From: Eledone cirrhosa
Lineage: Eukaryota
Length of the DNA: 64,000 nucleotides
Direction of reading: 5' to 3'
NCBI GenBank assembly: GCA_964016885.1
Contig: OZ024743.1
Location: 376,898,001-376,962,000 of the forward strand
The translations under genes and the position numbers were made by a program. This document shows positions 7,365 through 45,675 of this stretch, one piece after another. The notes beneath the pieces are model-generated. The model was not told the DNA's origin. It worked only from the letters and a program-made list of their open reading frames with translations, and did no database searches. Position 1 is the first letter of the stretch, and each line of letters opens with the position of its first letter.

Positions 7365-7574
7365 AAGACAGTGCTGACACGAATGACTCCTTACCTAATG
7401 GTGATACTACAGATAAAATCCCAACATCAAGTCAATCTTTTGCCTCACAACTCCTCAATGGAGACACTCCGAGTATATCGTCAATAGAAACACTCTTACT
7501 CAATATTCAAGGTCTTCTCAAAGTAGCTGCAGAGAATGCCAGACACCATGAACGGCAAATCAACTTTGAAAAAG
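7365..7574 (+). CDS. dac: Internal coding exon of dachshund (start of DD2/DACH-box C domain)
   Basis: Translation SSIETLLLNIQGLLKVAAENARHHERQINFEK matches the Dachshund/DACH DD2 signature SSIETLLxNIQGLLKVAxxNAR. Pyrimidine-rich tract plus TAG acceptor ending at 7364; AAG|GTTAGT donor at 7574/7575; phase 1-1. Confidence 0.93.
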
Positions 7575-9203: not shown

Positions 9204-9628
9204 GGTGGCTGCCAACTCGTTTTCGAGTACGGCCACTACTTTATATCAATGTAGGAGAACTTGTACCAATGCGCTGAACGAGTGTGACTTTTTAGTCTAG
9301 CCAGCGACTTGAAAACTCTAGTACAAACACTACACCTGTGACAATTATTGACACATAGTGCTGGGCCCATGGTACCATGTGACGACAAGTGCAGGGAGAT
9401 CTCCAGATATAAAGCAATGCCTGTGCCGTGAAGCTTTTATAGTGAGCAAAGGCACTGCACAAAGCCAGTCCCACTCTCTTAACCAAGATGATATTTACCA
9501 AAAAGAAGAACAAGTCAACATCATTGGATACCATCAGGGTTGCAGGTGTTATATCAGAGCTTTCCTTCTCCTAGAATTCTGCCTTGACAAAGGCTAAGGG
9601 GTCATCTCTCCCGGTGATTTTGGATGGC
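9201..9628 (-). mobile_element. Short non-autonomous element resembling an RTE-clade 5' UTR (bipartite RTE-type SINE candidate)
   Basis: Minus strand carries TCTAGGAGAAGGAAAGCTCTGATATAACACC, which resembles the RTE 5'-UTR motif as I recall it; bounded by (TATG)n and (TA)n; no RT ORF. Confidence 0.5.
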
Positions 9629-9698
9629 CATACATACATACATACATACATACATACATACATACATACATACATACATACATACATACATACATACA

Positions 9699-10586
9699 GA
9701 GAAATCGGAAGATCCTATTCAATGTTCAAACAAGATGAAAAAATTGACCAATTTACAGAAAAAGTTGTGCACGGATACTTGAGACGTAAAACACAGACCA
9801 TAGAGAGGATAAACCACTCAAAAAGCCTGTTTATGATATCACACCTTGAGGGATATCTCTATTCAATACAGGAACAAGAACTCCCTACCAAATATCAGCT
9901 GCACAAAACAGGAGGGCCAGCAGCTGACAATAAATGCAGGCTATGTAAAACAAAGATCGAAGATGTAAGCCACATTGTTGCCAGCTGCCAAAGAATGTCA
10001 TCTCGCTACTACCTCCCCATGAGACACGATGTGATAGCTAGAACCATCTGGAACGCACTTCGGAAAACAAAATTGAAAAGAAACGTGGTAGAATATATTG
10101 AGACAGATGGCACTAAGGAATACTGGTGGAACCTGAAAATAAAAACTGCCACCAAATTAAAGCACAACCGGCCTGATATTGTTGTTTGGGACCACACATT
10201 GAAAACGTGTTCCGTTGTGGAGATCAGCTGCCCACTTGATGTAAATGTTGTCAGAAAAATACAGGAGAAGGAGGACATCTACGGACCATTGATGAGGAGT
10301 TTACAAATCCAGTATCCAAGATACACCTTTAGCTTCTTACCCATCATTATTGGAGCTACGGGTTATATACCAACCCGCTTGGACCAATGTATAACTGAAC
10401 TTGGATTTGCGGACAAAGAGCGCAGCTCCCTAATTCATAGTCTACAGATGGCTGCGATAGCTGGCACCTTCAAAACTTTCAAAACATTCTTGCGATTCAA
10501 GGGATGACAATTTCTTTTCTTTTACAACCTTGCTACCAGGAAGGTGGCCGGTCAAAAGTATACTCGAAATTAAGAGAAAGAGATAA
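9699..10586 (+). mobile_element. 5'-truncated R4/Dong-clade non-LTR retrotransposon (CCHC zinc knuckle plus restriction-like endonuclease) inside (CATA)n
   Basis: Open frame to 10507: CRLC..EDVSHIVASC, RHD, HNRPDIVVWD..VEISCP..K..EK..Y; (CATA)n at 9629-9698 and 10587-10606. Confidence 0.88.
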
Positions 10587-10603
10587 CATACATACATACA
10601 TAC

Positions 10604-10768
<165 letters not shown>

Positions 10769-10906
10769 TTTAATATGGAAATGGCTTCTACAGGACTAGA
10801 ACTGTTTCATTAAAAAGAAATCATGATGTTTACACACTACTAATGTATTGAGTACATTACTAACTGTGTTTACCCCCGATTGCACCCGGGACTCATATTT
10901 AATATA

Positions 10907-11008
10907 TAATGTGTCCCCAAAAATGTATACACACCTTGATTACCTGTACAGGCAATATTTATTAGAATGCTGTTGAAGTATATATACATTTTTTGGGGGG
11001 ACACCCTG
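10907..11008. mobile_element. Tc1/mariner-type MITE
   Basis: Inverted termini GTGTCCCCAAAAATGTATAC and TATACATTTTTTGGGGGGACACCCTG, followed by TA. Confidence 0.65.
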
Positions 11009-11139
11009 TATATATATATTATTCTTCTGTAAATATAATTCATTCTTCTCTAAGTATAATCATTTCTTTCTTGATTGTATAACAATCTAGGAGGGAGAAA
11101 TTGTAGCGGGTGAGGGTCCGAGGGAAATTCAACTTAAAT

Positions 11140-11399
11140 CAATGGTCCCCAACCTTGGGTATCAGTCTTCAGGGTGTTCGTGAGATTTTTTTCAAAATTA
11201 TTTATTTACACATATTTTTAAGTGTCCATTTTTTTCTCTGAGTATAAACATTTCTGTCTTTTGATTTTTGTGATCACTGTATAACAATCTGACACGATAA
11301 TAATTATAGCGAGGTATGGGTGGGTGAGTGTATGGTATCTTTGGGAAAATTCATTAAATACAAAGGGTTCTTAGTAGTGAAAAAGTTTGGGAACCACTG
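11140..11399. mobile_element. hAT (Charlie-like) MITE
   Basis: TIRs CAATGGTCCCCAACCTT and AAGTTTGGGAACCACTG. Confidence 0.65.
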
Positions 11400-11790
11400 G
11401 TCTATAACTAGATAAATGACCAAAGTTTTGTTAAGCAAGGCTGCATAAATTACATAAGATAGAATCACGTAAACGTAACCATATGTGTCAGAATAGGAGG
11501 ATAAGGGAGAGGAGACCAGGATGAGGGGGTGTAGGAAGAAGAGAAGACAGTGACTGTGTGGGAGGAAGGGGAGGTTAGACTGTAAAAATCAAAATTTTTC
11601 TAATTAAAAATTCAATTTAAACAAGATATTGAAATTATATTTTTCTGGACTGCATGTATTTATTTTTTAAATTAAAATAAATAAATAAATAAATTTTACT
11701 CTAGGTTTTGTTCCCACCCCCGTCCCCACTACAACTACTTTTGTTTTTTGTTTAGTTTTTTATGTCTGTGTGCGTGTCTGTGTGTGTGTG

Positions 11791-11828
<38 letters not shown>

Positions 11829-11870
11829 TTTCACTTGCTCGTTCCTTGGCTGCTTCTGCAGGAAATCGGG

Positions 11871-11927
<57 letters not shown>

Positions 11928-12461
11928 TATGTATACATATATATATATACATATATATATATATACATATATACACATACATATATATATAATACATATA
12001 CATATATGTGTATGTATACACACTACTACACACATATATACATACATACGTGTGTGTGTGCGTGTGTTTCTTTTGGATTTAAATACTCTTCCTTCTTTAT
12101 TTCCTATTTTATTTTTTTCTTATTTAAAAAAAATCTTTGAATTATTTTTTGTTTGTTTTAAATATTCTTTTAAATTTTGTTTAAATTTTGTACGTAATAT
12201 TCGTCTTCTTCTTCCATTTATTTAAATGGTGCTAATCTTTTCCGCTTCTTTTTATCGGGGAATTCATTGAAGTTGTTGAAAAATCTAAAGTTTACTTCCT
12301 CCTCCCCTTCCTCCCTCTCTTCCTCTTCCTCCTCCTCTCCTCCTGCTCATTTCCCTTCCTTCTTCTTATCCCTCACTGTCTTTGGATGTGGTTGTTTGTT
12401 GTTGATGCTAGCCTGTCCTTTTAAGGTAAACACCGACGCCACCATCACTGGCAGTTGCAGC

Positions 12462-12730
12462 AGTGGTGGGGTGGGGTGGAGAGGTGTGTTGGTGGTTGAG
12501 GTGATTGTAATGGTGGTGGTGGTGGTAATGGTGGTGGTTGTAATAGTGGTGGTGGTGGTGGTAGTAGTGGTGGTGGTTGTAATAGTGGTAGTGGTGTTAG
12601 TGGTGGTGGTGGTGGTGGTGGTGGTGGTGGTGGTGGTGGTGGTGGTGGTGGTGGTGGTGGTGGTGGTGGTGGTGGTGGTGGTGGTGGTGGTGGTGGTTGA
12701 GGTGGTTGTAATGGTGGTGGCGGTGGTAGT
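12462..12730. repeat. (GGT)n microsatellite
   Basis: Direct. Confidence 0.95.
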
Positions 12731-12855
12731 AAGAGGTGTAAATTGATATGTAGAAACAACTCCGAAGAAATATACGGTTGTTTCTTGTCGGTTGTTTCGA
12801 CTGCGTGATCTGCCGAGGAAGCTTCTAGAATTATTAAAGTTAATTAGATATAGAA

Positions 12856-12947
<92 letters not shown>

Positions 12948-12949
<2 letters not shown>

Positions 12950-13805
12950 TCAAGGAGGAAGAGCAGCCTTAAGGGAAAATCCCTTCATAGTACCTTCTTT
13001 GAGAAAACTGAATTTAGAGATCCACAGACATGGAACTGGTTGAGAAGAGGAGACCTCAAAAAGGCTACAGAAGGAATGCTAATGGCTGCGCAGGAGCAGG
13101 CCCTCAAAACGAAGTGGTTGAAGCACCATATCTACAAGGAGGAGGCTAGCCCACTGTGCAGGATCTGTGGAGAGAGAGAGGAGACTGTGGCCCACATTGT
13201 GTCCGAGTGTAAACACCTAGCCCAGACCCACTATAAGGGCTGGAGACACGATGTGATGGGCAGGGTGATCCACTGGCACCTGTGCAAAGTAAACAATCTA
13301 CCACATTCTGAGAAATGGTATGAGCATAGGCCAGAGGCGGTGATGGAGAACAGTCAGGTGAAGGTGCTGTGGGATTTTAGGATACAGACGGACAAAAAAC
13401 TGGAACACAATAGACCTGACCTGGTGGTTGTGGACAAAGAAAAAAGATCGTGCCTGATTGTGGATGTGGCCTGCCCGTTCGACACGAGAGTGCAAGAGAA
13501 GGAGAGGGAGAAAATTAACCGATACCAGGACCTAAAGTGGGAGGTGAAAAGGATTTGGAACTGCCATGAAGTCAAAGTGATCCCGATTGTCATAGGCGCA
13601 CTGGGGACTATCTCCAAAGGTTTCCAGGGATGGTTAAAGAAAATCGGCCCCTTCACGCTTTTTGGAACGCTTCAAAAGGCATGCTTGCTTGGAACGGCAA
13701 GAACCCTCCGATACGTCCTGAATATCTGAGGCTGCAGGTAGTGGCTTGATATTCAATCCAACGGACTTTCCAGTTAACCAACATCAATGACTGAGATTCA
13801 AGGAA
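12948..13805 (+). mobile_element. 5'-truncated R4/Dong element, family A copy 1, flanked by (TAA)n
   Basis: Frame open 12947-13729: CRICGEREETVAHIVSEC, RHD, HNRPDLVVVD..VDVACP..KEREKINRY; (TAA)n 12856-12947 and tail to 13839. Confidence 0.92.
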
Positions 13806-13860
13806 TAACAATAACAATAATAATAATAATAATAATAATCAGAAGAAGAAGAAGAAGAAG

Positions 13861-16733
13861 ATCTACCCGCAATAACTGGCAATGTAAAAACTGCTACAAC
13901 TCTGGGAAACTAAACCAGAACAACCTGCCACCCTCTACACACCATCATAAACTGCGAGCAGGGTACAAATTGTTGTCCTTAAATGCTCGCAGTTTATGCA
14001 ACAAGATACATCTGTTCGAATCCTACGTCAGAAGCATCGACCCTGACTTCATCACAGTCACGGAAACATGGGCACATTCCTTACTCTGTGATGGGGTTTT
14101 CACCATTACTGGGTACAACCTTTTCCGCAGGGACCGCATTAACCGCCGTGGTGGTGGTGTGATGGTCTACGTTCGTTCAAACTTTTCGGTAATTCCTTGC
14201 GTTGATTTGAACGAATCACAGGAAGAAGTTTTTTTCTGTGACATACGTATGACCATGTCAACACTTCTGCTTGGTGTTGTTTATCGACCCCCAAACTACC
14301 ACCAGGACACAGCTTTGCGATATCCTCAGAGTTGCTGCCAAGAAAACAGCCACTTATGTGTTTATTGCAGGTGACTTCAATCATCCTGAGATCGATTGGG
14401 AAACCTTTCGTTGGCCACAGGGTGCAAACGATTTCCTTGAACTAGTGCTGGACTCAAACTGGTCACAAGTAGTCACCTCTCCAACAAGAGGTGACAACAC
14501 TTTGGACCTGATCTTCACCACTACTCCTGAAGTGGTTATCAGTTGTACTACTGAGGAACCTCTAGGCGACTCTGATCATGCTATGATCATTGCCAATCTG
14601 GCACTTGAGGGCAGCAACAAAAACCAGGGCCATCTCCAATCTGCTTGCTTTGATTGGAAGAGGGCGGATTGGAACTTGTACTGCACTGAGCTACAGCGCC
14701 CAAACTGGCATGAGATGTATAACTCTGGAGATGTGAACTCTATACTCCAGAGCATCCTGGACTCAATATGGATAGCGTGTGCAGCATCAGTGCCACGGAA
14801 GCGGAAAAATAACCACCCCAAAAGTGCAATCTGGGAAACTTCAGCGGTCCGACTTGCCAGGAAAGAACGTCGGAACGCTGAACGGGAATATAAACTGCAT
14901 AGATCAGATGCCAACAGAAAAAAGCGGAATAAATCTTCTAACCATCTCAAGCAAGTGACAAAGAAGGCAGTGCTTGAATTTGAACAGTGCATCGCAACCA
15001 ATCCTGACAGTAAGGTGTTCTGGAAATATGTTCATTCAAAGCAGAGACCTCACTCTCCAGTTGGTCCTCTTCGCAATCCCCACACAAGCCAGATCACTGA
15101 CGATCCCAAGGAATGCGCAGAACTCATTGCTGAGTGCTATGCAAGTATTTTTACTGTTGAAGACCAGAATGTACCATCTCCACCATCTCTAACATCAAAT
15201 TCCATAACAACTATGGAATTTACACCTGCAATGTTGCGACGTCACCTTAAGAATAAGCGCAACTATGCCTCCCCTGGTCTTGATGGTGTGACATACCTGC
15301 TTCTCAAACGTGGCGGGGATTTCCTTTTGCGCCAGCTTTCTTTTTTCTTTCAATACTGTCTCAGCAATGGTGCTACTCCGGAGCAGTGGAAAACTGCCAG
15401 TGTCATTCCCCTGTTCAAAAAGGGCAACCGCATGTCACCTGTCAACTATCGTCCAGTCAGTCTTACTAGCTGTATGGCCAAACTGATGGAATCCTGTGTC
15501 AGAGAAACACTTTGGAACTTCTGGAGCTCTCACAGCCTCATCCGGCCCTCACAGTTTGGATTTATCCCTAACTCCAGCTGCTGTGATCAGCTTATCGAGT
15601 TTCTTGAGGACATCACCCGGATCACTGACAGCGGCTCATGGGTGGATGTTGTTTACCTTGACTTTGCTAAGGCTTTTAATTCTGTGCCACACAAAAGACT
15701 TATGGCAAAACTCTCTGCAATGGGTGTGAGGGATGATCTTTTCGACTGGCTGAAATCCTTCATTCTCAGCCGAAAGGAAGTAGTCACGGTTCTAGGACAG
15801 CATTCTTCACCATATGAGATGTCATCTGGTGTACCACAGGGATCTGTTCTTGGTCCTCTTTTGTTTGTGGCATATATTAATGACATAGATGCCAACTTAC
15901 AGAATGCCACGGTACTAAAATATGCAGATGACATCAAGCTGTACCTTGAAATCAAAAGGACTGATCCTGAAATTTACAACTCTTTCCTACAATCAGACCT
16001 GGACACAATGCAGCAATGGATCACAGACTGGCAACTGAAGCTGGCTGTGGACAAGTGTACCACCATGCATTTTGGAAGGAAAAATCCAGCGTCCACATAC
16101 TCCCTCCACAACACTGACATCAAAAAGTCCTCTTGTGAACGTGACCTGGGCATTACTGTCAGCAACGATTTGCGTTGGACAAAGCATGTCTCTAAGATTG
16201 TCAAGAAGGCCGAGGGTGTCTTGGCATCACTCAGCAAGACCTTTGTTAGCCGCTCTCCAGCCATCTATTTAAAACTGTATACAGCTATGGTGCGACCACA
16301 CTTGGAATTCGCATCATCAGTCTGGAACCCCTATCTTGCTCGGAACATTGACCTCCTGGAAACTGTTCAGAGACGTGCAACCAAGCGCATACCCTCCATC
16401 AGACACCTACCATACTCTGAACGCCTTGCTTCCCTGGGCATGGATTCATTGAAGCTCCGACGTCTGGCAATGGACTTGGTGAATACCCACAAAGTTTTTA
16501 ACCATCTCGCCAACTGCAACCATGAGCGCCTCTTTGATCTCCATGTGTCTAACACACGTGGACATGCCTACAAGATAAGAAAACAGCACAGCTCCCATGA
16601 CTTTCGCAGACATTTTTTCACGCTCAGAGTTGCTGAAGCATGGAACAAACTGCCTGCGTCAATTGTTAGCTGCCGAGACACTGCATCCTTTAAGACACTC
16701 ATGCTTCCCAAAATACGCCAAAACTACACCTGA
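13861..16733 (+). pseudogene. CR1 ORF2 (APE-RT) split by a frameshift near 14305-14312
   Basis: YRPPNYHQDT in the 13787 frame continues as QLCDILR..GDFN in the 14271 frame; the offset fits loss of one CA in GACACAG. Confidence 0.85.
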
Positions 16734-17015
16734 TGTACCCCTTCCATACACATGCACACATGTGTGTATCATGACTCGTGCACTGTTCATTTTACTGATG
16801 TTTGTGCATTGCCCTATGTACTGTACATGCACTTTTTTGATGAGTTGTGGTGCACCTGGGCACTGTGCACAATATTTCGTTATTGTTATTATATCATGAC
16901 TCATACACTGTTTATTTTCCTGACATTTGTACATTATTCTATGTACTATACATGCACCTTTGATGAGTTGTAGTGCACCTGAGCACTGTACACAATAATT
17001 TCATTATTATTATTA

Positions 17016-17016
<1 letters not shown>
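13861..17016 (+). mobile_element. CR1-clade LINE, 5'-truncated, APE endonuclease plus RT with one frameshift
   Basis: LNARSL, VTETW, RRDR..GGGV, YRPP, GDFN, SDH (APE); YRPVSL, QFGF, DFAKAF, GVPQGSVLGP, YADD (RT); RPHLEF..VWNP, VQRRATK, TRGH C-terminus; (TTA)n tail. Confidence 0.93.
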
Positions 17017-17046
<30 letters not shown>

Positions 17047-17156
17047 AAGAAGAAGAAGAAGAAGAAGAAGAAGAAGAAGAAGAAGAAGAAGAAGAAGAAG
17101 AAGAAGAAGAAGAAGAAGAAGAAGAAGAAGAAGAAGAAGAAGAAGAAGAAGAAGAA
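17017..17156. repeat. (AAG)n microsatellite; a matching short (AGA)n lies at 13841-13860
   Basis: Direct. Confidence 0.95.
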
Positions 17157-17953
17157 AACTGAATTTAGAGATCCACAGACATGGAACTGGTTGAAAAGAG
17201 GAGACCTTAAAAAGACTACAGAAGGAATGTTAATGGCTGCGCAAGAGCAGGCCCTCAAAACGAAGTGGTTGAAACACCATATTTACAAGGAGGAGGCTAG
17301 CCCACTGTGCAGGATCTGTGGAGAGAGAGAGGAGACTGTGGCTCACATTGTATCCGAGTGTAAACACCTAGCCCAGACTCACTATAAGGGCTGGAGACAT
17401 GATGTGATGGGCAGGCTGATCCACTGGCACCTATGCAAAGTAAACAATTTACCACATTCTGAGAAGTGGTATGAGCATAAGCCAGAGTCGGTGATAGAAG
17501 ACGATCAGCTGAAGGTGCTGTGGGATTTTAGGATACAGACGGACAAGAAACTGGAACACAATAGACCTGACCTGGTGGTTTTGGACAAAGAAAAAAGATC
17601 GTGCCTGATTGTGGATGTGGCCTGCCCATTCGACACGAGAGTGCAAGAGAAGGAGAGGGAGAAAATTAACCGATACCAGGACTTAAAGTGGGAGGTAAAA
17701 AGGATTTGGAACTGCCATGAAGTCAAAGTGATCCCGATTGTCATAGGCGCACTAGGGACTATCTCAAAACGTTTCCAGGGATGGTTAAAGAAAATTGGCC
17801 CTTTCACGCTTTTTGGAACGCTTCAAAAGGCATGCTTGCTGGGAACAGCAAGAACCCTCCGATACGTCCTGAATATCTGAGGCTGCAGGTAGTGGCTTGA
17901 TATTCATTTCAACAAACTTTCCAGTTAACTAACATCAATGACTGAGACTCAAA

Positions 17954-17955
<2 letters not shown>
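17154..17955 (+). mobile_element. 5'-truncated R4/Dong element, family A copy 2, (TAA)n tail to 18044
   Basis: ORF 17191-17880 nearly identical in protein to copy 1; same 3' UTR. Confidence 0.92.
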
Positions 17956-18045
<90 letters not shown>

Positions 18046-19032
18046 GGGAAGAAGACGCACGAGGTGGTAGAAGGTCATGAAATCGCTCCCGTAAGTTTTT
18101 GATTTTTAACATATTTAAATCAATTGTGAAATAACAATTCTTAGTACAAATGTTGCATAAACCACCGAATCAAGTCCCATAAAATTTCGGATCCATATTA
18201 TATTGTTATATCGCTCAAATATTCAATTTTGTATTATATATTTTGTATTAAAAAAAAAGAAAATGGTTATAAATGGAAGAAAACACCCTCTGTCTACACT
18301 ATATAGAACAGCCAAATAACAGCAATTTCACCAACACCAGAAACTTGACACACCACCTATCCCATCACACTAAATATAACAGCCAGATAACGGCAATTTC
18401 ACCACCACCACTATCAATCCCAGCATCATAATAATAATTACTATTATTATTGTCTCAAGTCTTAACAAAATGTTTAATTCCAATTTTACGGGAATATGTC
18501 AACACAATATATATTAAACATACGAACACAAACTCATAGATACTACATATCACAAAACACAGTAACGACAACGCCACCGCCGCCACCACCCCATCCATCA
18601 TTGCTACCACTATCCCATCACCGCCGCCACCACTCCTTCATTGCTACCACCACTATTCCCCTGTTAACTTGAGAGAGAAAGGGGAAGGTGGCAGTATCAC
18701 TAGACAAGGGAGAGGCTAGCAAAATATATAAATAGATTGACTTAGTGACCTGGCCACCGGCCAAACGTCAACATCAACAACTATGGGACTGCTGGCTCAC
18801 CCCTTCCTCACCAACAATATAAAAAGCCCCGGCACCACCACCGACATAGCCAACAACAATAACAGGCAACTTCAGCAAAAAGTATATTATATTATTGTAA
18901 TGCACTGGGTGATTGCTGGCCTTGTGCCTGGAGTGGAGACAATTATTAATAATTTCATTCTTAAGCCACGCAATGCTCACATTAAGGAACCACTCATGAT
19001 AATAACAATTTAAAAAAACAACAAAAAGAAAA

Positions 19033-22000
19033 CCCCGTGACCAAGAAATACCGGGATGGCGGCCGGCGGGGAATAGCCGTGTCTCTAGGGGAGAACGACC
19101 CCTCTAGTCTTGGTTGACACTCGTTCTAGAAGTGGTAACATGAAATGATTACCCCTTGGCGGATAAGGATAAAACGCGACAAAATAAAGTAAATGTCTAA
19201 TGATAAAATCTCATACCGGATCGGCCGTCACCCGGGTAAAAAAGGGCCGCGTCCCTCAGAGAGGAACCAGACTGGGGTCGAAAAATCAGCTAATGGTTCA
19301 AACCTTCCCATCACTTCGGAGCTGGAGACCTCCCATAACCGGAATACTCCTACTGGTGGCCCTCCATGCTCACCACCAAGAAATCCAAAGAAAAAGAGAG
19401 AAAAATGGTCAAGGGAAGATAATAAAGAAGTCATTGAGGCTTTCTACACTGCCATGTACTACCCATCAAATACATCGAATACAGAACAGACATATATCAA
19501 CTGGAAAAAGAAACATCCCGAAAACAGAGGCTATATTGACAGTAACAAACTAGCCAATATACGAAGAAATATTGTAAGAAAAAAGTTACTAACTGATATA
19601 GAAATTGATCAGATCAAGCTATTAGTACAAAGTCAGCGAAGGGAAAATGAAACATGTGTCAGTGAAAACGAGGCAAACTGTAACACTTCAAATCCCAGGG
19701 TTGGGGCGGAATCACTGGCAACAGAACAAATTAAAGAAAGGATCGAAAAAGTGGAGGGAGTGCATGCTCAGGATGAAACTCCAAATGAAAATAATGAGAT
19801 CGTAAATGATAAAGAAATGAATGAGAATGAACTTGCCAACTTGAAGGATGAAATTATGATAGAATGGATGAAAATGAAAGAATCTGACATGGGGCAACGA
19901 GACACCCTCCCTAAGATCCAGAACTCCAAACAGAACCAAAAGATAATACACAAGACTAACATAATTCTCAAAAACATTATCATCACAAACAAACTAAACA
20001 TTACTGATTTAAATCATCTCTATTATGCATCGGCTAAAGTCACCACTCACTTATGTGGAGTGAAGATGAAAAAACAAAGGAATTCCCACAAGAAATCTAC
20101 TTGGCAAGAGAACATCAATCGCCAAATAAACCTTCTCCGATCTGACATAGAAATTTTAACAAACTATAAAGTAGGTGAACATGTTAAACAAACTAAACTT
20201 AGAAAATTGAAAAAAAAGTACAGTATAAAATCAACATGTGACATAGACATGCAGATAGAAATAATCAAGCAAAAAGTGTCGGCCAAAGCTGCTCGTATAA
20301 GGCGCTTTGAAAAACGATCTAGATTCTATAAGGACAATAATATGTTCAAAAACAACCAAAGAAACTTCTACAGAAAAATTGGTAAGTCAACAGTAACTGC
20401 TAGATCAATACCACCCAAGGAGGAAGTGCAAGAATTCTGGGAAAAGATCTGGGCCGAAGAAAAAGTTCATAACATACATGCCCCATGGATAGACAGACAA
20501 ATGAAAGATACAGCTCACCTTGAGGAACAAATATGGGAAAATATAACAGTTGACCAGTTGCGCTTGGCTCTAAGAAAAACCAGCAAATGGAAATCCCCAG
20601 GAAAAGACAAAATACAAAACTTTTGGATAAATGCCTTCAGAGAGTCTCATGAGCTGTTAGCCCAACTTTACATTGAAATAGTTAAGGAGCCAGAAAAGAT
20701 ACCATCATGGCTAGTTAACGGCATTACATTCCTGCTTCCGAAGAATGATGAGACAAACAATCCCAAAAATTACAGACCGATAACTTGCTTGACCACAATG
20801 TATAATATGTTAACATCAGTCCTAACTGAATACACATATGACCACCTGATAACAAATGACCTATTTCCCATTGAGCAGAAAGGGTGTAAACGAGGCTCAT
20901 ATGGCTGTAAGGATCAGCTTCTGGTTAACAAAATGATACTGGAAGATTGTCATAATAGACACAAAAATCTATCGATTGCTTGGATAGATTATAAAAAAGC
21001 ATTCGATAGTTTGCCACACAGTTGGATTGAAAAATGTTTAGAGATTTTCAAAATATCCCCCGTTGTCAGGAGGTTTTTGTCATTCAGTATGAAGACATGG
21101 AAAACGACACTCCTTTTGAATAGTGAAACAAAATCACTGGAAGCTGGAGAAGTTAATATTAATTGTGGAATTTTTCAGGGTGACTCTTTATCACCGCTTT
21201 TATTCTGCATCGCACTTATACCATTAAGTAAAATGCTCAATGAAACAAAACATGGATATAAAGTCTATGACAAAACCATTAATCACCTGTTCTACATGGA
21301 TGACCTGAAACTATTTGCAAAAAATGATGAACAATTGCAAGGGCTATTATCCACTGTGGAGCAGTTCAGTGATGACATTAAAATGGAGTTTGGACTAGAT
21401 AAATGCGCCAAAGCAACGTTCGCCAGAGGAAAGCTGCTGAAGAGTTCAGACATTAATCTTGATCGGGGAACGTGATAAGAGAACTTGATCAAGAAAAAAC
21501 TTACAAATATCTAGGTGTTTGTGAAGGAGACGGAATCAAGCACTCGACAATGAGGGAAAGGATAAGGAAGGAATGTTACCGCAGAGTAAGAGCAATCTTA
21601 AAAACGGAATTGAATGCAAGGAATAGGATCGATGCCATAAACACGCTTGCCATACCAGTAGTAACCTACAGTTACAATGTCATCAACTGGTCAAGCACAG
21701 AGATCCGTAGGCTCGATACAAAAATTCAAAAATTCTTAACCATGCACAGAATGCATCACCCTAAGGCAGATATAGATAGAATATATCTCCCTAGGAAAGA
21801 AGGAGGACGTGGGTTAATCCAGTTAGACATTGCGTTGAAAACTGCAACAATTGGATTATCTACATATCTAAGGGAATCACATGATTGGATGATCAAACTC
21901 GTTTTGAAACACGAAAGCATCAAAAGATCATATTCCATTACAAAAGATGCACAAAGATACAGTAATGGACTACAAATTTCAGAAGTCCCATTTACTGCTG

Positions 22001-22985
22001 AAATGGAAAACACAGAAAAAGCAAAGCAAGTAAAAGTAACTGCAAAGAAAGAACTGCTACAGAAACTGGCTAAGAAATGGCAAGAAAAGCCTCTGTATGG
22101 AAAATACCCAGAGCGAGCTAACAATCCTGATGTTGACAAAACTTTAACCCATCAGTGGTTGGCATCCTCTGGACTGAAATCGGAGACTGAAGGACTGATT
22201 ATATCGGCACAAGATCAATGTCTGCCAGCAAAAAATTACCAAGCCAACATAATAAAAAATGGGTGCAGCCCATTATGCCGTGTATGCAAAAAACAACCAG
22301 AGACCATTGACCATATAATTTCAATGTGCAGTCCTATAGCTCCAACCGAATACCTAAACAGGCATGACAGAGCTGCACAATACATACATTGGATAATGTG
22401 TAAGCATTTTGACCTGCCCCATCAAAAGAATTGGTGGGAGCATCAACCACCTCCCTTACTTGAAAAAGATCACATCTCAACCTTGTGGAACTTTAGCATC
22501 CAAACAGACCGAAAAATAGATGCAAACAGACCTGATATAATATTGAAAGACTTTCAAAAGAGGGTATGCCTGCTAATTGATATGTCTGTTCCAATAGACA
22601 AGAATATATCTATAAAAACATTTGAAAAATTGAGCAAGTATAAGGACCTGGAGATAGAAATTGGAAAAATGTGGAAATTGAGAACTAAAACAATACCAGT
22701 GGTTGTAGGCGCTCTGGGAATGATACCTAAGGGGGCTAATGATTACTTATCGCAAATCCCAGGAAACCCGCGTATAGGAGAAATACAAAAGATAGTACTA
22801 ATGGGAACTGCCCATATACTAAGGAAGATTCTGTCAATATAAGTACATCACAAGTCTAAACACTAAAGATGTATGTGTGAATATGTATGTTCTTTCTTGA
22901 ACATGGCGGACCTTGTTGTCTCTTGAGGTCACTGGTTGTGACTTGGTGATAACTCGTATGAACATAAAGCAAGATAAATGCAACT

Positions 22986-22986
<1 letters not shown>
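19033..22986 (+). mobile_element. Apparently full-length R4/Dong-clade non-LTR retrotransposon (family B), (TAA)n tail 22987-23020
   Basis: GC-rich structured 5' UTR; KSPGKDKIQNFW, YRPITCL, EQKGC, WIDYKKAFDS, GIFQGDSLSP, YMDD, YKYLG, RKEGGRGL, CCHC knuckle, NRPDI..IDMSVP..EK..KY. Confidence 0.93.
19193..22842 (+). CDS. R4/Dong RT-RLE polyprotein (about 1216 aa) interrupted by a single 1-bp deletion near 21465-21471
   Basis: ORFs 19193-21475 and 21472-22842 join with a -1 offset at GATCGGGGAACGTGATA; no other stops. Confidence 0.85.
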
Positions 22987-23020
<34 letters not shown>

Positions 23021-23527
23021 TTACCACATTCTGAGAAATGGTATGAACATAAGCCAGAGGCGGTGATGGAGAACGATCAGGTGAAGGTGCTGTGGGATTT
23101 TAGGATACAGACGGACAAGAAACTGGAACACAATAGACCTGACCTGGTGGTTGTGGACAAAGAAAAAAGATCGTGTCTGATTGTGGATGTGGCCTGCCCA
23201 TTCGACACGAGAGTGCAAGAGAAGGAGAGGGAGAAAATTAACCGATACCAGGACTTAAAGTGGGAGGTAAAAAGGATTTGGAACTGCCATGAAGTCAAAG
23301 TGATCCCGATTGTCATAGGCGCACTGGGGACTATCTCCAAAAGTTTCCAGGGATGGTTAAAGAAAATCGGCCCCTTTACGCTTTTTGGAACGCTTCAAAA
23401 GGCATGCTTGCTGGGAACAGCAAGAACCCTCCGATACGTCCTGAATATCTGAGGCTGCAGGTAGTGGCTTGATATTCATTCCAACGGACTTTCCAGTTAA
23501 CCAACATCAATGACTGAGATTCAAGGA
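23021..23527 (+). mobile_element. 5'-truncated R4/Dong element, family A copy 3, (TAA)n tail to 23604
   Basis: LPHSEKWYEHKPE...LRYVLNI near-identical to copies 1 and 2; starts directly after the TAA tail of element B. Confidence 0.92.
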
Positions 23528-43852: not shown

Positions 43853-44005
<153 letters not shown>

Positions 44006-44133
44006 TTAGCCGTCGAAACGGCTTGAGCTCAGCTGTCGGGGTCTTACTGGTTCCTATTACCCACTCTACTACCTCAATTAATGAGTACTTTGGTGTGTTA
44101 TGGTCCACCTGGTTCCTTACCACATTTCCTTCG

Positions 44134-44173
<40 letters not shown>

Positions 44174-44392
44174 AAAATTATATTAAGGGTGTCATGTCCG
44201 AGACATGCGCCATATTGACCGTAGAATAAGCTCAAAGATTCCAATGAATAGATCCGAGCATTTTATATCAACTAGAAATTGTTTGACATATATATATATA
44301 TTTAAAATTATCCTCTGTGATTGTTTCATGTCTTTATTTTAAATATATATATATATGTCAATCAATTTCTAGTTGATATATATATATATATG

Positions 44393-44880: not shown

Positions 44881-44949
44881 ATCGGGAGTTTGAATACACT
44901 AACCAGAAAACCACGCACCTTCACTATCACATACACACACACACATATA

Positions 44950-45017
<68 letters not shown>

Positions 45018-45222
45018 CGTTTCTGAATTTGTTTAGCAAGATTCTTTATCTGAAAACATGTGTTGAAACCGATATTGTTATACTTTGGAAGGGTCATGTT
45101 GCCAATAAGAAACACACGCACCAGTTGCTTTCACTTCAATTTATTATAATAAATTAAATTTATAAACTTATAAATTTCCGGTTGGTTGGTTGGTTCCACA
45201 ACCAGATGATTGTTCATATATT

Positions 45223-45265
45223 GTCAAAGTTCTTTCGTCACACATTCTGTGACCTCTTCAGTGAC
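45223..45265 (-). ncRNA. Minimal type I hammerhead ribozyme (minus-strand copy)
   Basis: GTCA-CTGAAGA-G-GTCACA(GAATG)TGTGAC-GAAA-GAACTT-TGAC; 4-bp stem I GTCA/TGAC. Confidence 0.8.
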
Positions 45266-45327
45266 TGGGGATTCTTTTCTTTGTTTTTGTGCCTCTCCTT
45301 TGTTCTGTCCTACGCCATCTTGTTTTC

Positions 45328-45368
45328 TCACTGAAGAGGTCACAGAATGTGTGACGAAAGAACTTTGA
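45328..45368 (+). ncRNA. Minimal type I hammerhead ribozyme (plus-strand copy), predicted cleavage after 45365
   Basis: TCA-CTGAAGA-G-GTCACA(GAATG)TGTGAC-GAAA-GAACTT-TGA; intact core, 6-bp stem II, short near-palindromic stem III. Confidence 0.78.
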
Positions 45369-45675
45369 CAATATATGAACAATCATCTGGTTGTGGAACC
45401 AACCAACCAACCGGAAATTTATAAATTCATAAATTTATAAATTTAATTTATTATAATAAATTGAAGTGAAAGCAACTGGTGCGTGTGTTTCTTATTGGCA
45501 ACATGACCCTCCCAAAGTATAACAATATATATATATATATATATATATAAAGTATAACAATATATATATATATATATATGTAAAAGTTCTATTTAAATTG
45601 TTGGGATACAAGTAAATATTTTTATAACTGAAATAAAGCACTCAATATTTATTTATAAAACTGATCTATATTATA

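What the first reader, a model, noticed from the sequence alone, without database searches (positions are those of the whole stretch)
45072..45570. Twin divergent hammerheads in a near-perfect 200-bp palindrome: a self-masking ribozyme cassette
Seen: each arm has an intact hammerhead core, and the inversion breakpoints fall within stem I, 3 nt before CUGAAGA. The terminal AAAGTATAACAA is re-duplicated in the downstream TA run. Whichever strand is transcribed, the antisense arm is made first and can fully pair with the ribozyme. Known: minimal PLE hammerheads with short palindromic stem III cleave best as dimers. Inference: the inversion neutralises a sense-strand ribozyme in the presumed dac intron while creating a long dsRNA (ADAR or siRNA substrate), and editing could unmask it.
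Basis: partly seen in the sequence, partly recalled or inferred. Interest (0 to 1): 0.75.

Follow-up and report, generated by a model that had tools for sequence, protein, structure and literature searches.

The report
Head-to-head Penelope retroelement end stub
The palindrome is real and each half carries a small hammerhead ribozyme motif, but it is two cut-short ends of a very abundant Penelope-type jumping gene inserted back to back in a dachshund intron, a layout already described for this class and likely made at the moment of insertion, not a purpose-built self-masking switch.

Summary
Observation largely confirmed, interpretation not. Two 200-bp arms (2 mismatches, one 8-nt indel) each hold the same minimal type-I hammerhead motif, inside a ~60-kb dachshund intron. 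They are 3' ends (pLTRs) of a Penelope-like retrotransposon with a 1,121-aa-plus RT/GIY-YIG frame (Neptune/Nematis type); the exact 39-nt core occurs 5,566 times in this genome. The 63-nt 'spacer' is just more element; there is one junction, not two, and the left copy runs 55 nt further (the known Penelope 'tail'). In 86 position-ordered loci, 45 have such a 5'-to-5' junction and 19 keep both cores; 1 of 128 5' ends falls in stem I. Opposite-strand twin hammerheads, inverted pLTRs and a one-sided tail are all in print. Masking in a read-through RNA is predicted but is a by-product; simulated editing does not free the ribozyme. Residual interest is mechanistic: 32 of 32 complete pairs are one tailed plus one tail-less arm, both ends lie at the same AATATCG motif, and in 17 of 32 neither arm contains the other, favouring priming from both sides of the cut. 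This scan noted the same layout, and the end rule, before on other DNA. No RNA or read evidence was obtained.

The parts
45017..45326 (-). Tailed 5'-truncated copy of the Penelope-like element's 3' end (positions -65 to +247, counted from hammerhead C3)
   Evidence: 94% identity over 313 columns to the 3' end of natural near-full copy L104; spacer matches upstream element sequence in most loci
45017..45071 (-). 55-nt 'tail' extension, present on this arm only; encodes part of the first ~27 codons of the element's frame
   Evidence: frame start seen in L097, L104, L108, L113
45223..45265 (-). Minimal type-I hammerhead motif with complete 4-bp stem I; predicted cut between 45227 and 45226
   Evidence: sequence; fold of the isolated arm shows stems I and II; activity untested
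45265..45326 (-). 'Spacer': upstream pLTR sequence of the tailed copy, ending at the family's 5'-end hot spot (-75 to -56)
45327..45327 (.). Single junction between the two copies; one base that matches neither copy's continuation
   Evidence: loose ends at 45326 and 45328 show the normal continuations
45328..45528 (+). Tail-less 5'-truncated copy (positions -3 to +192), sense to dachshund
45328..45369 (+). Minimal hammerhead motif with stem I cut to 3 bp; predicted cut between 45365 and 45366
   Evidence: alone it is not predicted to fold stem I; activity untested
45549..45560 (+). 12-nt repeat of the element's tail-less terminus inside the TA run; likely an aborted extra priming event or slippage
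   Evidence: the same TA-embedded motif occurs 19 times in the genome, reversed control 0, mostly with no element end upstream
44946..45016 (.). (TA)n target, left side
   Evidence: 120 of 131 sampled arms end in TA repeats
45526..45579 (.). (TA)n target, right side
7365..7574 (+). dachshund exon (start of the C-terminal conserved domain); the ~60-kb intron after it holds the insertion, next exon 3.8 kb past the window's end
   Evidence: splice phases of the two exons match

Best explanation
This is a young, doubly 5'-truncated insertion of an endonuclease-bearing Penelope-like retrotransposon, two element ends joined head to head in a TA repeat, likely made in one integration event. Shown: family membership, copy number, one junction, one tail, TA target, intronic position. 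Inferred mechanism: the element's RT/GIY-YIG protein cuts both strands of a (TA)n run; each free 3' end pairs with an AAUAU site near the start of the frame (+192 on one side, +247 on the other) and primes its own cDNA from element RNA; the two cDNAs stop early (-3 and -65, the latter probably the RNA's 5' end) and are end-joined. The hammerheads are passengers of the pLTR. In dachshund pre-mRNA the arms are predicted to pair into a ~200-bp duplex, plausibly an ADAR substrate like other young inverted repeats, with no evidence of a selected role.
For: Arm is a high-copy repeat: 838 first-look candidates, 42 matches at 95-100% from 40 scored; 5,566 exact cores, control 0. Upstream of other copies lie RT and GIY-YIG frames. 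First 100 listed cores: 13 divergent neighbour pairs within 5 kb, 2 convergent, 0 same-strand, about 0.8 expected in all. 86 loci: 45 with a 5'-to-5' junction, 19 with both cores, 32 of 32 complete pairs one tailed plus one tail-less, 120 of 131 arms end in TA. In 17 of those 32 the tail-less arm reaches further 5' than the tailed one (hand count), so neither arm can be a copy of the other. Both 3' ends sit at AATATCG. Published: inverted copy plus one-sided tail (PMC8557442, PMC3846280), opposite-strand twin minimal hammerheads 100-700 bp apart (PMC4209133), both-strand cleavage and extension with two internal start sites bounding the tail (PMC11167929).
Against: The two-sided priming model is inferred from genomic end patterns only. 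PMC11167929 found no difference in start site between strands in vitro and described the start site as not homologous to the cut DNA, which differs from the strict pairing and TA microhomology seen here. For this one locus the tail-less arm lies wholly inside the tailed arm, so fold-back copying is not excluded here. The tail is 55 nt, longer than the 30-40 nt usually quoted. The whole 1,121-aa frame gave no Pfam hit; the RT hit in a piece is below cut-off (E 7e-4) and one GIY-YIG hit just passes (23.2 vs 22.6 bits). The junction was not seen in sequencing data.
Confidence: 0.9

Rival explanations
1. Same element, but the second arm arose by fold-back or self-priming on the first cDNA or on an antisense template (the reading offered for head-to-head Penelope repeats in PMC3846280).
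For: At this locus the tail-less arm (-3 to +192) lies inside the tailed arm (-65 to +247); arms of a pair are more alike (2.7% mean) than arms of different loci (4.4%), partner nearest in 9 of 14.
Against: In 17 of 32 complete pairs each arm has sequence the other lacks (hand count), which simple copying of one arm cannot give; it does not explain why the second arm always ends at the other AATATCG site.
Confidence: 0.2
2. One reading: a selected self-masking cassette; the inversion neutralises a sense-strand ribozyme in the dac intron, and editing can unmask it.
For: The site is intronic and the + arm is sense to dac; the duplex is predicted to mask stem II completely; young repeats are the main A-to-I targets in most animals sampled (10.1101/2020.01.19.911685, passages); 5' ends at -10..0 are slightly dense (4 of 128) and L188 has another junction at about -3.
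Against: Layout is the family's default (45 of 86; both cores 19 of 86). Single minimal hammerheads did not cleave in vitro (PMC4209133). With 10-100% of arm A's changed to G the fold stays at -232 to -336 kcal/mol and stem II probability rounds to 0 in 19 of 19 folds, while 6 core A's would themselves be hit (G is a rough stand-in for inosine). The insertion is young (2 substitutions in 187 columns between arms).
Confidence: 0.04
3. Assembly or library fold-back artefact.
For: No listed Logan contig bridges the junction; Penelope tandem/inverted structures are known to trouble assemblies (PMC8557442).
Against: Arms differ by 2 substitutions and an 8-nt indel, end at two different family-typical sites and are flanked by different unique DNA; the same build recurs at many loci.
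Confidence: 0.03
4. A MITE or fold-back DNA transposon, or a retrozyme, that moves as a palindromic unit.
For: Near-perfect inverted repeats in a TA target.
Against: Arm lengths and spacers vary from tens of bases to over 3 kb and run into an RT frame; the two ends are unequal; no same-strand tandem cores within 5 kb among 100 listed, unlike tandem retrozymes.
Confidence: 0.02

Closest known systems
Inverted-pLTR-plus-tail insertions of endonuclease-bearing Penelope-like elements (Craig et al. 2021, PMC8557442, passages and section 11 read; Arkhipova et al. 2013, PMC3846280, passages read)
   Same: 5' truncation, inverted copy adjoining the 5' end, head-to-head as the commonest layout, tail on one end only, pLTR and tail covering the first codons of the frame, TA-repeat targeting, Asn-rich stretch in the frame.
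   Different: Tail is 55 nt rather than 30-40; this locus has no coding body left; the one-tail rule is here counted (32 of 32) rather than described as 'often' or 'optional'.
Minimal hammerheads of metazoan Penelope-like elements (Cervera and De la Pena 2014, PMC4209133, parts 1-2 of 4 read)
   Same: Type I, short stem I (4 bp), longer stem II, unpaired base between A9 and stem II, G-C first pair of stem II, thousands of copies, dual motifs 100-700 bp apart on opposite strands tied to truncated elements.
   Different: Stem II is 6 bp; a 2-bp stem III with an AA loop that is not self-complementary; this subfamily has U at the cleavage position where the commoner long-frame copies have A (6 vs 30 of 36).
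Neptune and Nematis clades of Penelope-like elements (as defined in PMC8557442)
   Same: C-terminal GIY-YIG endonuclease, CX4CX2C linker, two Cys inside the GIY-YIG core plus downstream His residues, DKSG form of the DKG motif.
   Different: No tree with named references was built, so Neptune versus Nematis is open; I found no paper naming this family.
Poseidon_Ac (PAc) of Anolis carolinensis (Frangieh et al. 2024, PMC11167929, parts 1-2 of 4 read)
   Same: Two 3' end sites near the frame start bounding the tail; AT-rich targets; hammerhead in the pLTR with no sign of cut-site ends (0 of 30 copies begin at the cut here).
   Different: Different clade; here both sites share AATATCG with homology to the TA target, and the two sites are used one per side.

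Membership tests
Endonuclease-bearing Penelope-like element | Single frame with RT followed by C-terminal GIY-YIG endonuclease | tested here: met
   Frames of 828-1,121 aa ending just upstream of the same 3' repeat; RVT_1 E 7e-4 (below cut-off) and GIY-YIG PF01541 E 8e-5 (above cut-off) on pieces; whole frame no Pfam hit
Endonuclease-bearing Penelope-like element | Pseudo-LTRs from partial tandem or inverted copies | tested here: met
   Direct pLTR-frame-pLTR in L097, L098, L101, L104; inverted in L096, L099, L102 and others
Endonuclease-bearing Penelope-like element | Tail extension at one end, overlapping the frame start | tested here: met
   +192 and +247 end classes; 32 of 32 complete pairs discordant; tail translates as the frame's start
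Endonuclease-bearing Penelope-like element | RT groups with Penelope-like RTs in a tree | not tested
   No named reference sequences on hand; motifs read by eye
Neptune/Nematis clades | CX2-5CxxC linker between RT and endonuclease | tested here: met
   C-X4-C-X2-C upstream of the GIY-YIG core in L031, L095 and others; definition from PMC8557442
Neptune/Nematis clades | Placement in Neptune or in Nematis by phylogeny | not tested
   Supplement of PMC8557442 listed but not opened
Hydra clade | CCHH absent, CxCX5C linker, DKT motif, under 3 kb | tested here: not met
   Two Cys in the core and His pair present, CX4CX2C linker, DKSG, element over 4 kb
Minimal type-I hammerhead of Penelope-like elements | Conserved core, stems I and II, unpaired base before stem II, NUH site | tested here: met
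   among 36 copies from long-frame loci the two common variants fall in loop II and at the H position (A or U); Rfam does not recognise it; fold energy no better than shuffles
Minimal type-I hammerhead of Penelope-like elements | Self-cleavage as dimer or with protein | not testable with these tools
   No assay; 0 of 30 copies start at the cut site
Non-LTR retrozyme | Non-coding tandem repeats with same-strand hammerheads | tested here: not met
   0 same-strand neighbours within 5 kb among 100 listed cores; sequence runs into a coding frame
MITE or fold-back DNA transposon | Fixed, equal termini and uniform size | tested here: not met
   Unequal ends and arms from under 100 nt to over 3 kb

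The most novel reading that the evidence does not exclude
The family records an asymmetric two-sided priming mechanism: one integration complex (perhaps a dimer with two RNAs) primes both strands of a cut TA repeat, always using the +192 AATATCG site on one side and the +247 site on the other, so the Penelope 'tail' and head-to-head inversion are two faces of one obligatory reaction; the 5'-end hot spot at -75..-56 would mark the RNA's start. With thousands of young copies and long open frames this is directly testable.
Probability: 0.4. Interest if true: 0.5.

Novelty: new member of a known kind. Interest (0 to 1): 0.2.

Why it matters
As a locus it matters little: it is one of probably many hundreds of similar palindromes in this genome. 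The useful residue is for the open question of how Penelope-like elements make inverted insertions with a one-sided tail: the counted end rule (32 of 32), the shared priming motif and the pairs in which neither arm contains the other narrow the models. Collectively such palindromes would be a large source of intronic double-stranded RNA, but that was not measured.

Tried and rejected
Rfam: no match at gathering score in the window; 8 weak non-hammerhead matches at E up to 10. Sequencing runs: no RNA holder listed, so expression and editing are untested. Laying Logan contigs on the junction (X1-X4; X1-X3 and X5): no listed piece bridges it, but the tables are cut, the repeat fragments the contigs and the runs may be another individual; no verdict. 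Stem I as a breakpoint hot spot: 1 of 128, rejected, with a slight excess at -10..0 left open. Ribozyme-cut 5' ends: 0 of 30 copies; 1 partner arm at +35 (L094), no peak. Tail hairpin closing between the two end sites: predicted but z about -1 and variable among 79 tails; inconclusive. Editing as an unmasking switch: failed in simulation. Hydra clade, retrozyme and MITE: rejected (membership table). A gapped count of re-duplicated termini was not obtained; an exact shorter motif was counted. Orientation bias within dac introns not attempted: too few copies expected. [quoted passage not shown]

Full report
Observation. The inverted repeat is in the sequence: 45072-45264 against 45328-45528, 201 columns, 2 mismatches and one 8-nt indel in an AT-rich microrepeat, with 63 nt between. 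Each arm carries the same hammerhead-type motif, core C3 at 45331 (+) and 45261 (-); my scan found no other in the window. The predicted + strand cut after CUU is 45365/45366 and the terminal 12-mer recurs at 45549-45560. Rfam does not score the motif, and its folding energy is no better than shuffles, as expected for so small a motif; the case for it rests on the core letters and on family variation, which among 36 copies from long-frame loci is concentrated in loop II and at the cleavage position, A in 30 and U in 6.

The window lies at G000:C4:376,898,001-376,962,000 of a 3.0-Gb genome, and the arm is a high-copy repeat. In other copies the spacer, read on the - strand, directly precedes the hammerhead. 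So there is one junction, at 45326-45328 with one extra base, not two breakpoints. The - copy has its full 4-bp stem I and runs on to 45017, 55 nt past the end of the palindrome; the + copy starts 3 nt before the core and ends at the TA run.

Identity of the repeat. [quoted passage not shown] A 175-aa RT piece had 7,796 first-look candidates, 150 scored, at 88-100%. Twenty loci chosen for long frames show direct and inverted pLTRs, and the frame begins inside the pLTR so that the 55-nt extension is coding sequence. The CX4CX2C linker, the Cys pair in the GIY-YIG core and the DKSG motif fit Neptune or Nematis and not Hydra as defined in PMC8557442 (passages and section 11 read). No tree was built. 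The exact 39-nt core occurs 2,812 + 2,754 times, reversed control 0; this counts only the CUU subfamily.

How common the layout is. Among the first 100 listed cores on C1, neighbours within 5 kb were divergent 13 times, convergent twice and never on the same strand, against about 0.8 expected in all. I fetched all 100 as 89 loci, dropped 3 that overlapped others, and mapped 86 on natural copy L104. 45 of 86 have a 5'-to-5' junction and 19 of 86 keep both cores; 27 loci had only 1.5-kb flanks, so these are lower bounds. Of 46 junctions, 32 have both arms reaching a 3' end, and all 32 pair a tailed (+247) with a tail-less (+192) arm (p 5e-10 at even odds). 120 of 131 arms end in TA repeats. Of 128 5' ends, 28 fall at -75..-56 (1.4 per base, against 0.04-0.5 elsewhere within 1 kb), where this locus's - copy ends; 1 falls at -4..0 and 3 at -10..-5. 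The sample needs one intact core per locus and BLAST ends are fuzzy by a few bases. Among 30 copies picked by sequence just 3' of the cut site, none begins at it.

Mechanism. Both 3' ends lie at AATATCG, whose first letters match the TA target. In 17 of the 32 pairs the tail-less arm reaches further 5' than the tailed arm (hand count), so each arm has sequence the other lacks and neither is a copy of the other. PAc protein cuts and extends both strands and starts at two internal sites that bound the tail (PMC11167929, parts 1-2 read). I infer priming from both sides of a cut, one start site per side, then end-joining of the two short cDNAs. Against this, PAc showed no strand difference in start site and no homology to the target, and at this locus fold-back copying (discussed in PMC3846280) still fits. 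Arms of a pair differ by 2.7% on average against 4.4% between loci, 14 pairs measured; this locus by 2 of 187, so it is young. The extra 12-mer recurs in TA runs 19 times, control 0; in 15 loci inspected only L213/L214 (one place) and this one have a same-direction element end upstream, which suits aborted priming, with slippage possible here.

Host gene. A Ski/Sno/Dac domain lies at C4:376,498,415. A window exon at about 7365-7574 matches dachshund-like proteins; one of them maps exons at 376,498,382, 376,788,813, 376,905,364 and, weakly (E 0.03), 376,965,760, all on +. The last has an acceptor in matching phase. The insertion is thus in a ~60-kb intron, + arm sense. The name dachshund rests on the Pfam domain and my recall of the C-terminal motif; the library proteins are unnamed.

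Masking and editing. The + strand RNA folds into the long hairpin and stem II has probability about 1e-19. Changing 10, 30, 50 or 100% of arm A's to G left it at -232 to -336 kcal/mol with stem II still unformed in 19 of 19 folds; six core A's are among the targets (G only approximates inosine). A single minimal hammerhead did not cleave in vitro and dimers cleaved weakly (PMC4209133, parts 1-2 read); opposed copies never put two sense motifs on one RNA. Editing of such a duplex is plausible, since young repeats are main targets in most animals sampled (10.1101/2020.01.19.911685, passages), but no RNA holder was listed and contigs neither bridged nor contradicted the junction.

Prior art and verdict. 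PMC4209133 reports dual minimal hammerheads 100-700 bp apart on opposite strands from truncated elements; PMC8557442 and PMC3846280 describe the inverted copy and one-sided tail. 10.64898/2026.07.22.740005 (passages) added nothing specific. Earlier notes of this scan (read after my counts) describe the same layout in this and other genomes, one with a near-strict end rule; they are not independent support. Verdict: a new member of a known kind, interest 0.2; the self-masking cassette is very unlikely, and the end rule is the lead worth keeping.

Noticed in passing
L065-L094, L120-L178 (C1 sample); window 45326: 5' ends of copies pile up at -75..-56 from the hammerhead core (28 of 128), in a CA/A-rich stretch; may be the RNA's start site or an RT stop. 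Tandem 5' pLTRs in long copies extend past it.
   Followed up: partly
L095-L114: Two subfamilies differ at linked positions in loop II and at the cleavage base (CUA in 30, CUU in 6 of 36 cores); both fit NUH. The long-frame copies are mostly CUA.
   Followed up: partly
L095:4310-7672, L096, L097: The element's frame has a long Asn/Thr/His-rich low-complexity stretch before the RT, like the N-rich inserts described for Adineta Penelope elements (PMC3846280); many copies keep frames over 800 aa, so the family is recently active.
   Followed up: no
window 44005-44135, 44170-44290, 44355-44378: Other short repeats sit in neighbouring TA runs; similar sequences appear beside TA runs at L220, L141 and L124 (by eye), including a short inverted pair at 44263-44290 and 44355-44378. 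Likely stubs of other TA-targeting elements; no canonical hammerhead found there.
   Followed up: no
window 9575-23452: Several LINE-type frames on + (RVT_1 at 14253-16730 and 19193-21472, AP endonuclease, weak zf-RVT) inside the same dachshund intron.
   Followed up: no
L188; L209, L215, L216: Very short head-to-head insertions: L188 has two cores almost abutting; L209, L215 and L216 join a tail to a 15-30-nt tail-less stub, again one tailed and one tail-less end.
   Followed up: no
G000:C4:376498382-376965846: The dachshund gene spans at least 467 kb, with four exons located.
   Followed up: partly
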